30,952 nt of DNA from the NCBI GenBank assembly GCA_043803685.1, contig JAZDJU010000108.1:1-30952 (forward strand), in the 5' to 3' direction. Every line of letters starts with the position of its first letter. Position 1 is the stretch's first letter. Below, one piece after another: positions 18,001-21,000 of this stretch. Made by a program: the position numbers. The DNA is from Candidatus Omnitrophota bacterium. GTDB taxonomy: Bacteria; Omnitrophota; Omnitrophia; Omnitrophales; Aquincolibacteriaceae.

Positions 18001-21000
18001 CAGACAATGTGATGATGGCGGCGACCTTGGCGCATGGAAGAACCGTGATCGAGAACGCGGCCTGCGAACCGGAAGTCGTGGACCTGGCGCGGTTCCTGAA
18101 AAAAATGGGAGCAAAGATCACGGGCGAAGGTTCGCCAAGACTCGAGATCGAGGGCGTCAGAAAACTCCATGGCGCTGAGCACCAGGTGATCCCGGACAGG
18201 ATCGAGGCGGGCACGTTCCTTTATGCTGCGGCGATCACGGGCGGAGACATCCTGGTCCGGAAAATGGAACCGAGCCATCTGAACGCGGTGATCGACAAGC
18301 TTCATCAAGCGGGTGTGCGCGTTGAAAAATTCAAGAACTCCGCGCGTGTAAGAAAAAATGGAAAGTTGAAACCTGTCGATATCACGACACTGCCGTATCC
18401 GGCGTTCCCGACGGACCTGCAGGCTCAGGCGATGGCGCTTGCGACGGTGACGCCCGGGATCAGCGTGATCACGGAAAAGATCTATCCGAACCGTTTTATG
18501 CACGTGCCCGAACTTGGCCGTATGGGCGCGAAGGTTTTTTTAGAGGGGCCGAGCGCCATTGTGCATGGCGTTAAAAAATTGAGCGGAGCGCCGGTGATGG
18601 CCTCCGACCTCAGAGCCAGCGCAGCGCTTGTGCTGGCGGGTCTGGTGGCAGAAGGCGCGACGGAAGTTCAGCGCGTGTATCATCTGGACCGGGGTTATGA
18701 GAACCTCGAACAGAAACTTACGGCCCTCGGAGCTTCGATCCGTAGGGAGAAGGAATAGTTTTAATCAGCATTCAGCGTTAAGCGGTAAGAAAAAAATCCT
18801 GTTTCTTTAACGCTTACAGCTTAACGCTTATCGCTATCAACAAGGAGGCAACGTGGCAGTCAAAATCAGAATGAAACGTTTCGGCAGCAAGAATCGTCCT
18901 CAGTGGCGTGTCGTGGTCAGCGATGCGAAGATGCCGCGGGATGGGCGCTTTATCGAGGAGATCGGCTATTATGACGCGCTTCCCAAGGAAGATATTTTCG
19001 TCGTAAAACAGGATCGTCTCGAGTATTGGGTTAAGCAGGGAGCGCAGATGAGCGCGGCCTTGAAGAGCCTTGTGCGGCGCGAGAAGAAAAAAACAAAAGC
19101 GAAAAAGAGCGCCTAGCACTGTTCTCCATTTGATTTTAAGAGTTAACAGTACTGCCCAAGTCTTTATTTCTTTTTATTAAGGGTGACTTGGACTGCACTG
19201 ATTTTCGATCATTTTTTAATGAAAATCAGGTGCTGTACCGCATACCCTTAATTTCAAATGTGATGCGGTACTAGGACCTTTCGGTCAGAAAGGCGTTCCA
19301 TGCTCACGATCGAGATTGTGACGCTTTTCCCGGGCTTTTTTAGCGGCCCGCTTGAGGAATCGCTTTTGGAAAAAGCCCAGGCGAAAGGTCTTTTAAAGGT
19401 CCAGACGCACGATCTTCGCGATTGGACGCACGACCGCCATAAAACCGCGGACGATAAACCGTTCGGCGGCGGGGCGGGAATGGTCATGAAGCCCGAACCG
19501 ATCTTCGAGTGCGTCGAAGCTGTTGGCGAAGACGCCTGGGTGGTGTTGATGGATCCCCAGGGCGAGCCTTTGAGTCAGGCGCTGGCTGAAAAGCTCGCGA
19601 AGAAAAAACATCTTGTCCTGATCGCAGGGCATTATGAGGGCGTGGATCAGCGCGTGAAAGACCACCTGATCGATCAAGAGATCTCGGTGGGTGATTTCAT
19701 CACGATGGGCGGCGAGGCGCCGGCCCTTTGTTTGATTGAGGCGGTTGTGAGACTTGTGCCGGGTGTTCTGGGGAACGCGGAATCGATCAAGCATGAAAGT
19801 TTTCAGACGGGCATGCTGGAGCATCCCCACTATACGCGTCCTCGCGAATACCGGGGGTGGAAAGTCCCTGACGTGCTTGTCTCGGGGGATCATAAAGAGG
19901 TGGCGGCCTGGAGGGGCAAGACGGCCGAGCAAGTCACGAGACGAAGAAGACCCGATCTTTTAAAATAATTTACACAAACGGAGAACAGCCAAATGAACAA
20001 AATGGACATAGTTGAAAAAGAAGCTGCAGCGAAAAAGACGCCGGAGTTTCGCGTCGGGGACACTCTCAAGGTGCACGTTCGAGTCAAGGAAGGCGACAAG
20101 ACCCGCACCCAGCTTTTCGAGGGCGTCTGTATCAGTAAAAAGGGAAAGGGCGTTCGCGCGAGTTTCACCGTCCTCAAAGAAAGTTACGGGGACAAGGTCG
20201 AGAAGATCTTCCCGCTTCATTCGCCCAACGTTGAAAAGGTTACCGTCAGCGTGAAAGGCAAAGTTCGCCGCGCGAAACTGTATTACCTGAAAAACAAGTA
20301 ATCTTCCTCCGGCCCTAAGGACGATGGAAGGAGCTGAAAAAAAATCCCGCCGGGAGATCCTCCTGGAGAAGCTCTTGGATTTTGACCGGCAAGCAACCCC
20401 CGCGCAAGTCGGGGGATGGCTCGCCGGCGTGGATGAGGCCGGGCGCGGCCCTTTGGCCGGTCCCGTGGTCGCGGCAGCCGTGATCCTTGTAAGGCCCGAA
20501 ATCCTTGCCGGCATCAACGACTCCAAAAAGGTGAGCGCCAAGCAGCGCGATGAACTTTACGTCAAGATCGCTCGCTCCGGCATCGTGGGCATCGGCTTCG
20601 CGGACGAAAAACAGATCGACGAACTGAATATCTACGAAGCCACGCGCCTGGCCATGAAAAAGGCCGTGCTGAATCTTTCCCACACTCCCACAGGCCTGCT
20701 GATCGACGGTCCTATGCGCCTGGACCTTGAGATCGAACAAAAGGGCGTTATTCACGGCGATGGGAAATCGGCGAGCATTGCCGCCGCCTCGATCGTAGCC
20801 AAGGTTTTTCGGGACCACTGGATGCAAAAACTTCATGAGCTTTATCCCGCCTACGGATTTCATAACCACAAGGGCTACGGAACGGCCGAGCACATGCAAG
20901 TTCTCAAGGAAAAAGGTCCAGCCCCCATTCACCGGCATAGCTTTGCGCCGGTTCGTGAGGCGGCAGAGGCTTTCCGCGTCCCCAACACGAAGAAAGCGCG

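What a model noticed while it worked through the whole genome (the two positions that open the first line are those of the whole stretch)
18853..20301. Loss of universal ribosome-assembly and proteostasis genes: RimM (whole phylum), Der/EngA (whole family), RsgA, and ClpX [...]
The rpsP-trmD-rplS operon (g02168-g02170) lacks rimM, which normally lies between rpsP and trmD, and no RimM exists anywhere in the genome or in 161 sampled genomes of the phylum. The double-GTPase Der/EngA is missing from this genome and from all 42 sampled genomes of the family Aquincolibacteriaceae but present in other Omnitrophota families; RsgA is missing too (on record in 22 of 1029 genomes of the phylum against 61% of bacteria). 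ClpX is missing from the genus (0 of 11) although tig-clpP (C104:2940-4986) is kept; the only Clp ATPase left is a ClpA/B/C-type protein (g01387). RimP (absent upstream of nusA-infB-rbfA-truB, C37:113936-118586), RsmG/GidB, the GTPase EngB/YsxC and Lon are lik [...]
Evidence so far: pfam.tsv has no RimM, RimP, GidB, KH_dom-like, zf-C4_ClpX, Lon_C rows. PF01782 RimM: 0 of 10 genus, 0 of 161 phylum; the control rings in all 10 bacterial references. TIGR03594 Der: in the genus only single-GTPase-domain matches (TrmE, Era, HydF, HflX, FeoB loci), none over the cut-off; at E<=1e-60 46 of 161 genomes of the phylum, 0 of 42 of the family. TIGR00382 ClpX: 0 of 10 and 0 of 11 genus, 23 of 42 family, 53 of 161 phylum. 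RsgA counts from relatives.tsv. PF02576 RimP_N, PF02527 GidB (E<=0.001), TIGR03598 EngB (E<=1e-25), TIGR00763 Lon (E<=1e-60): each 0 of 6 genomes (own + 5 of the genus >=95% complete). Control for the method: BacA/UppP, also without a row here, is found in 9 of 9 re [...]
(Added by a program. Inside this text positions count along the whole contig: contig position 1 is position 1 of the stretch shown here. "Call 12" and the like, gene names such as g00115 and contig names such as C1 are that model's own, and its searches are not shown. The text may have been shortened before it was handed on; [...] marks where a part breaks off. The agent that wrote the report below was given it as the finding of a first reader that could run no searches.)

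Follow-up and report, generated by a model that had tools for sequence, protein, structure and literature searches.

The report
Omnitrophota family: Der deleted, ObgE remodelled
This uncultured Omnitrophota bacterium and all 50 family relatives searched have no gene for Der, a ribosome-building enzyme that E. coli cannot live without, and in the six family members examined the partner enzyme ObgE has lost a conserved switch residue, so these cells likely finish their large ribosomal subunit with little of the usual GTP-driven help.

Summary
The absences are real, but they are separate losses of different ages, not one event. rpsP-trmD-rplS lacks rimM; the 183-bp gap is a dispersed repeat. RimM loss is older than the phylum: one contaminant hit in 301 Omnitrophota, 0 of 101 Verrucomicrobiota. 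Der is missing from 216 of 301 genomes, including both single-contig genomes tested, while uL1 (298/301) and ObgE (79/80) are found. Here der was cut cleanly out of pgsA-der-plsY (C128, stop and start overlap), and trees imply about 8-13 independent losses. Unlike CPR, uL1 and 23S H78 stay intact. ClpX (22/80) was lost independently of Der. New here: ObgE lacks a canonical DxxG in 17 of 17 genomes of this class, against 30 of 36 canonical outside it, so this family has Der deleted and ObgE remodelled. Ffh/FtsY are also missing. Prior print: the Der marker's patchiness is noted by accession only (PMC10066038), and Der loss is described in CPR (PMC12641178). The scan already noted Der, RimM and SRP loss on other DNA. 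How the 50S matures without Der is inferred, not shown.

The parts
17493..18758 (+). murA-like gene directly upstream of rpsP, where ffh stands in E. coli and in a Chlamydiae genome
   Evidence: ORF (name recognised from the translation, no family scan); ffh-rpsP order (L268)
18853..19116 (+). rpsP (bS16)
   Evidence: phmmer E 1.6e-14 to E. coli RpsP
19117..19275 (.). dispersed ~158-bp AT-rich repeat filling the rimM slot; not a rimM remnant
   Evidence: no Rfam match in the window
19300..19968 (+). trmD
   Evidence: E 1.1e-60
19993..20301 (+). rplS (bL19)
   Evidence: E 2.2e-24
22827..22983 (-). second copy of the dispersed repeat (86% identical)
24648..24803 (-). third copy of the dispersed repeat (96% identical)

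Best explanation
This genome and its family have deleted der from a conserved pgsA-der-plsY site and carry an ObgE whose G3 switch motif is altered, on top of older losses of RimM, RsmG, RsgA and SRP, so their large subunit likely matures by rRNA-driven folding with a remodelled, probably non-switching ObgE and the remaining general helpers. Shown: the absences, the empty site, the repeated pattern, intact uL1 and H78, the ObgE substitutions. Inferred: that the losses are independent (about 8-13 for Der, three in this class); that ObgE changed first and Der became dispensable afterwards (all 6 Der-positive genomes of the class already have the altered G3); that BipA, HflX, LepA, one DEAD-box helicase, Era and RbfA carry the remaining assembly work; that ClpP is served by the single ClpC-type ATPase. 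Confidence about 0.93 that the deletions are real and about 0.45 for the bypass route.
For: Empty site: G000 C128 has smc-pgsA-plsY-recA with pgsA stop and plsY start overlapping (ATGA) mid-contig; 20 of 27 Der loci examined have both pgsA and plsY as flanks, 4 have one; pgsA abuts plsY in 25 of 30 Der-negative genomes. Distribution: 85 of 301, family 0 of 50, families mostly all-or-none; none in two single-contig, one 2-contig and one 4-contig genome with all candidates scored. Controls: uL1 298 of 301, RpoB 80 of 80, ObgE 79 of 80, Der 5 of 5 in Verrucomicrobia/Chlamydiae outgroups. Der tree follows the RpoB groups; 13 parsimony changes on 71 RpoB rows; a single loss for f1+f3+f8 is rejected (p-AU 0.02) and with f9 (0.0002). 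H78 full length in 71 of 71 23S segments. ObgE G3 canonical in 0 of 17 same-class genomes (G to S 12, G to A 3, ExxG 2) and 30 of 36 others; switch I also eroded; distance relative to RpoB 3.2-3.7 against 1.6-1.8; dN 0.17, dS 2.2 for G000/G033. The same Gly-to-Ala change is dominant negative in Nog1 and Ras (PMC6968927, passages). EngA and ObgE are the two factors needed for single-step E. coli assembly in vitro (PMC13278734, section 8). ClpC-type protein with an LGF loop (loop role recalled).
Against: No experiment; no 23S rRNA is assembled in G000 itself. I could not search for a replacing protein across genomes. An empty pgsA-plsY site alone does not prove loss: in family f13 der has moved to a different place in each of 5 loci read, so the losses in G173, G211 and G104 are unconfirmed. 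The large Der search scored only 5 candidates per genome. The ObgE change does not track Der loss: 6 Der-positive genomes have it, and most Der-negative genomes outside the class keep a canonical G3, so it cannot be the general reason for Der loss. G3 position is limited to G, S or A, which could preserve slow hydrolysis. A slow-growth excuse sits badly with the report that this family is highly active in oxic soils (PMC10066038, passage). Loss counts rest on one gene with a poorly resolved backbone, and two 23S base-pair swaps shared by f1 and f3 but not f2 hint at a single loss there.
Confidence: 0.68

Rival explanations
1. An unrelated protein has taken over Der's job (non-orthologous replacement).
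For: Der is essential in E. coli and found in 99.2% of non-CPR genomes (PMC12641178 supplement rows); rRNA and uL1 look ordinary; the PVC signature protein of unknown role is present in 5 of 5 genomes.
Against: Eight or more independent losses would need a replacement already present phylum-wide; all 8 G-domain matches in G000 are accounted for as HflX, MnmE, Era, YchF, HydF, ObgE, FeoB, IF2; nothing was inserted at the der site. The signature protein is also in Der-positive genomes.
Confidence: 0.22
2. Specific compensating changes in 23S rRNA or ribosomal proteins made Der unnecessary, as with uL1/H78 in CPR.
For: The L1-stalk pair G2121-C2177 is unchanged in 26 of 26 Der-positive genomes and swapped in 20 of 44 Der-negative ones, in 6 separate changes; Der GD1 contacts uL1 and the L1 stalk (PMC4245960, passages).
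Against: Found after looking at 1081 columns; independent-pairs test median p 1; the other columns whose results I could read (2051, 2468, 1793) were not significant either, part of the output was cut; 24 of 44 Der-negative genomes keep the pair; H78 and uL1 are intact. It reads better as relaxation after loss than as a precondition.
Confidence: 0.17
3. The absences come from incomplete MAGs or from homologues too divergent to detect.
For: All genomes are MAGs; G000 is 91% complete; large searches score a limited number of candidates.
Against: 0 of 50 in the family against 50 of 50 for uL1; single-contig genomes lack Der; lineage-built HMMs find nothing; the site is empty mid-contig. A published closed genome scores only 92% on the general marker set, and TIGR03594 was one of three markers dropped.
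Confidence: 0.03
4. The losses are reductive decay of a host-dependent cell, one syndrome covering ribosome and proteostasis genes.
For: Omnitrophota are ultra-small with host-dependent traits (PMC10066038 title and passages); the set overlaps the CPR list.
Against: Der-negative family members reach 3.7 Mb while Der-positive genomes go down to 0.9 Mb; RimM is missing from Verrucomicrobiota of up to 5.5 Mb among the 20 listed; ClpX and Der occur in all four combinations.
Confidence: 0.08

Closest known systems
Der loss in CPR/Patescibacteria (Amikura et al. 2025, PMC12641178; sections 6 and 9 read, passages, supplement part 1 of 293 and searched rows)
   Same: Lineage-specific loss of der together with near absence of rimM, rimP, rsgA and rsmG; the paper notes that its single Omnitrophota genome had fewer factors than CPR and leaves it open.
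   Different: There der loss goes with loss of uL1 or H78 and obgE is often gone (59.6% kept); here uL1 (298/301), H78 (71/71) and obgE (79/80) stay, genomes reach 3.7 Mb, the loss recurs many times, and ObgE is remodelled in one class.
Marker exclusion in Omnitrophota (Seymour et al. 2023, PMC10066038; 12 of 21 passages read, supplements not read, the main supplementary PDF too large)
   Same: TIGR03594 reported as infrequent and phylogenetically constrained; PF02978 in only one genome.
   Different: In the passages read these are accession numbers in a quality-control step, not named as Der or SRP and not interpreted; no synteny, loss count or ObgE.
G3 glycine mutants of Obg-family Nog1 (G223A) and Ras G60A (PMC6968927, passages)
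   Same: Same position of the DxxG motif changed to a small side chain.
   Different: Those are laboratory dominant-negative alleles; here the change is fixed in 15 of 17 genomes of a class and the gene is under purifying selection.

Membership tests
Der/EngA (is any G000 protein one?) | two tandem G domains in one protein, TIGR03594 over 306.7 bits | tested here: not met
   best 109 bits, single domain, is MnmE
Der/EngA (is any G000 protein one?) | C-terminal KH-like domain | tested here: not met
   lineage-built HMM, best E 0.67
RimM (is any G000 protein one?) | RimM N domain plus PRC barrel, gene between rpsP and trmD | tested here: not met
CPR-type Der-less ribosome biogenesis | der absent in whole clades | tested here: met
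CPR-type Der-less ribosome biogenesis | rimM, rimP, rsgA, rsmG absent | tested here: met
   G000; rimP is kept in 2 of 4 Omnitrophota tested
CPR-type Der-less ribosome biogenesis | linked loss of uL1 | tested here: not met
   298 of 301 keep it
CPR-type Der-less ribosome biogenesis | shortened 23S H78 | tested here: not met
   71 of 71 full length, 71 of 170 genomes with a 23S match aligned; G000 has no assembled 23S
ObgE/CgtA (G000 C6:7009-8031) | N-terminal Obg fold plus G domain, gene behind rplU-rpmA | tested here: met
   272 bits, just under the TIGR02729 cut-off of 280
ObgE/CgtA (G000 C6:7009-8031) | canonical G3 DxxG and G1 asparagine | tested here: not met
   G3 reads ELPS; G1 N169 is S in G000, G001, G033
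ObgE/CgtA (G000 C6:7009-8031) | 50S-stimulated GTP hydrolysis | not testable with these tools
   needs purified protein

The most novel reading that the evidence does not exclude
This family builds an ordinary-looking 50S subunit with no dedicated GTP-hydrolysing late checkpoint at all: Der is deleted, EngB and RsgA are gone, and ObgE has become a non-switching placeholder, a state that would be the natural counterpart of the two-factor (EngA plus ObgE) requirement found for E. coli in vitro.
Probability: 0.25. Interest if true: 0.85.

Novelty: new variant of a known kind. Interest (0 to 1): 0.6.

Why it matters
Der is treated as essential and near-universal (99.2% of non-CPR genomes in PMC12641178) and is a standard completeness marker. 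Omnitrophota give many sister pairs with and without it, with uL1 and H78 intact, which separates Der loss from the shrunken CPR ribosome and answers the caveat left in that paper. In this class the second 50S GTPase is altered as well, at a residue whose mutation is dominant negative in Nog1, which gives a direct bench test of what GTP hydrolysis is for in late 50S assembly. The absences also lower marker-based completeness estimates for the phylum.

Tried and rejected
1) Gap as rimM remnant: rejected, it is a dispersed repeat. 2) RimM hit in G213: on a 2.6-kb stretch at a contig start with a long-tailed S16 and no trmD, nearest Atlas clusters mostly Bacteroidota, read as contamination; weak G208 hit (17.5 bits in a 480-aa frame) not followed. 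3) Der in G226 sits on a 7.9-kb contig in a cmk-der-HU-like context while its pgsA-plsY site is empty, read as contamination; Der in G192 is split over two frames at a contig end. Both stay in the count of 85. 4) CPR-like co-loss of uL1 or H78: not found. 5) 23S columns tied to Der loss: none significant among the results I could read; G288 dropped before the tree as a probable mis-binned rRNA. 6) Planctomycetota not tested: the genome titled Planctomycetia led to a phylum with 0.9-3.5 Mb genomes, probably Omnitrophota again (0 of 81 RimM). 7) TrmD search of viral contigs found nothing. 8) First RpoB tree had one wrong frame (G049) and was redone; 71 of the 80 genomes were put in the tree. 9) dS saturated for two of three ObgE pairs. 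10) Paper searches for a named account of Der, RimM or ObgE in Omnitrophota or PVC gave only the two papers cited; PMC10582724 and PMC12283558 (passages) say nothing on RimM loss. The library lacks most subscription journals.

Full report
Observation. The window is contig C108 of a 2.89-Mb, 133-contig genome, 91.3% complete and 6.6% contaminated. rpsP (18853-19116), trmD (19300-19968) and rplS (19993-20301) follow a murA-like gene. The 183 bases between rpsP and trmD hold no gene; they are a ~158-bp repeat with two more copies in the window and 33 places on 22 contigs. Phmmer with E. coli proteins against all six frames finds no RimM, RimP, RsgA, RsmG, EngB, Ffh, FtsY, RlmE, YhbY, Lon, ClpX, RNase R or uL30, and finds RbfA, TruB, ObgE, HflX, BipA, RsmB, RsmD, RluD, one DEAD-box helicase, ClpP, trigger factor, SecY and the other ribosomal proteins queried except the very short bL36. 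The eight G-domain matches are HflX, MnmE, Era, YchF, HydF, ObgE, FeoB and IF2.

RimM is an old loss. TIGR02273 matched 2 of 301 genomes of the phylum; the one over the cut-off lies next to a long-tailed S16 without trmD and resembles Bacteroidota RimM, so I read it as contamination. It matched 0 of 26 genomes reached through the PVC signature protein (18 titled Verrucomicrobia, 5 Planctomycetia, 1 Chlamydiae, 2 unnamed) and 0 of 101 in the phylum of an Akkermansia-titled genome. The Chlamydiae genome reads ffh-rpsP-trmD-rplS with no rimM. A further 0 of 81 is probably Omnitrophota again, so Planctomycetota are untested here. RimM is in 94.9% of non-CPR genomes in the published table.

Der is a repeated loss. 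It was found in 85 of 301 genomes (82 over the cut-off) and 0 of 50 in the family; most families are all-or-none (five candidates scored per genome). With all candidates scored it is absent from two single-contig, one 2-contig and one 4-contig genome and present in the control. The same method finds uL1 in 298 of 301, RpoB in 80 of 80, ObgE in 79 of 80 and Der in 5 of 5 outgroup genomes. In 20 of 27 Der loci the gene lies between pgsA and plsY, in 4 next to one of them. In this genome the block fabF-smc-pgsA-plsY-recA is otherwise that of the Der-positive sister families, and pgsA's stop overlaps plsY's start (flank names from HMMs and recognition of the translations). pgsA abuts plsY in 25 of 30 Der-negative genomes. 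A caution: in family f13 der has moved and has different neighbours in each of 5 loci, so two of those 25 sites and the f16 case prove nothing. The Der tree recovers the RpoB groups, parsimony needs 13 changes on 71 RpoB sequences, and I count at least eight losses that have a Der-positive relative inside a supported clade. Within the class, one loss for f1+f3+f8 is rejected at p-AU 0.02 and with f9 at 0.0002, on a single gene. Genome size does not explain it: Der-negative family members reach 3.7 Mb and Der-positive genomes go down to 0.9 Mb.

The ribosome did not shrink as in CPR. There der loss goes with loss of uL1 or H78 (PMC12641178, section 9). Here uL1 is kept and H78 is full length in all 71 23S segments aligned (26 Der-positive, 45 Der-negative, of 170 genomes with a match). 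One lead: the L1-stalk pair G2121-C2177 is unchanged in 26 of 26 Der-positive genomes and swapped in 20 of 44 Der-negative ones, including 11 of 11 in this family, in six changes; it was picked from 1081 columns and the independent-pairs test is not significant. Der contacts uL1 and the L1 stalk (PMC4245960).

ObgE is remodelled in this class. ObgE scores 247-294 bits in the class against mostly 330-417 elsewhere. Its G3 motif is canonical DxxG in 0 of 17 class genomes (Gly to Ser 12, to Ala 3, ExxG 2) and in 30 of 36 others (the 30 best-scoring and 6 chosen, of 62); G000 reads ELPS and, with G001 and G033, also lacks the G1 asparagine. Switch I positions are eroded too, the protein diverges about twice as fast relative to RpoB as outside the class, and it is still under purifying selection (dN 0.17, dS 2.2, one usable pair). 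All six Der-positive genomes of the class share the change, so it came first; it is not the general cause of Der loss, since most Der-negative genomes elsewhere keep DxxG. The equivalent Gly-to-Ala allele is dominant negative in Nog1 and Ras (PMC6968927), and E. coli single-step assembly gave no activity without EngA and much less without ObgE (PMC13278734). That ObgE here hydrolyses GTP poorly is a prediction.

Other losses. ClpX is over the cut-off in 22 of 80 genomes and 3 of 5 family relatives, in all combinations with Der. Relatives keep it between ispE and a sugar-permease pair; that site here holds tRNA-Gln copies and small inserts and no clpX trace. One ClpC-type ATPase with an LGF loop remains, and the tmRNA tag ends in FAA, so ClpCP is the likely tag protease (inference). 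RimP is kept upstream of nusA in 2 of 4 Omnitrophota tested and absent here and in the sister family. RsgA and RsmG: 0 of 5 each; the mnmG-parA gap is 448 bp. SRP54-type domains matched 6 of 201 genomes (15 candidates scored each; 0 of 5 with all scored), weakly, and the three I read are FlhF-like between flhA- and fleN-like genes (names recognised by me).

What is known. PMC10066038 dropped TIGR03594 and PF02978 from its completeness markers because they were rare in the phylum, without naming them in the passages I saw; its large supplements were not readable and may say more. PMC12641178 had one Omnitrophota genome, saw fewer factors than in CPR and asked for more genomes. Eight paper searches found no named account. 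The scan's own notes report repeated Der loss in Omnitrophota, RimM loss in PVC and SRP loss on other genomes, and none on the ObgE motif; I had written my reading before the first look-up.

Verdict. Real, layered deletions: a new variant of the factor-poor biogenesis known from CPR, distinguished by many clean Der losses with an intact L1 stalk and, in this class, a switch-altered ObgE. The bypass mechanism is inferred. Interest 0.6; 0.85 if the family proves to build 50S without a GTP-hydrolysing late checkpoint (probability about 0.25).

Noticed in passing
window 19117-19275, 22827-22983, 24648-24803; 33 places on 22 contigs: Dispersed ~158-bp AT-rich intergenic repeat with shorter variants that keep only the ends; looks like a MITE/REP-type element; no Rfam match.
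   Followed up: partly
G000 C6:7009-8031 (L251): ObgE with G3 ELPS and G1 N-to-S; non-canonical G3 in 17 of 17 genomes of the class, and separately in G285 and G132.
   Followed up: yes
whole genome; slot upstream of window 18853: Ffh and FtsY not found here or in 201 genomes of the phylum apart from six weak FlhF-like hits; SRP RNA not searched.
   Followed up: partly
G000 C40:49622-51046: Former clpX site: one intact tRNA-Gln, two partial tRNA-Gln copies interrupted at the anticodon by the same ~70-bp hairpin, a short GIY-YIG-like frame (my recognition) and an AT-rich ~190-aa orphan.
   Followed up: partly
G000 C37:68587-69052 and C37:87071-87727: rplV is split over two frames and the EF-Tu frame with the G1 motif is only 219 aa; assembly errors or frameshifts.
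   Followed up: no
G000 C89:1-4814: A second, different copy of part of the spc ribosomal-protein block, probably the contamination that the quality figure reports.
   Followed up: no
G000 whole genome: No uL30 (rpsE runs into rplO), RNase R, RlmE, YhbY or Hfq by phmmer with E. coli proteins.
   Followed up: no
L024, L356-L360 (families f13, f16): der has left pgsA-plsY and has different neighbours in each genome read.
   Followed up: partly
G140 and G030 (loci): No Era among the G-domain matches of single-contig G140 or of G030; G140 would lack Der, Era and RimM together.
   Followed up: no
L255 (G143 23S); L280, L281 (G140): 708-nt insertion at E. coli position 1917 with a LAGLIDADG-like frame (my recognition) in G143; 23S pieces of G140 lie about 880 kb apart.
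   Followed up: no
RpoB loci L090-L107: A large Der-negative clade shares a deletion of about 80 model positions in RpoB (220-297) and H71 changes C1947G and C1962G in its 23S.
   Followed up: no
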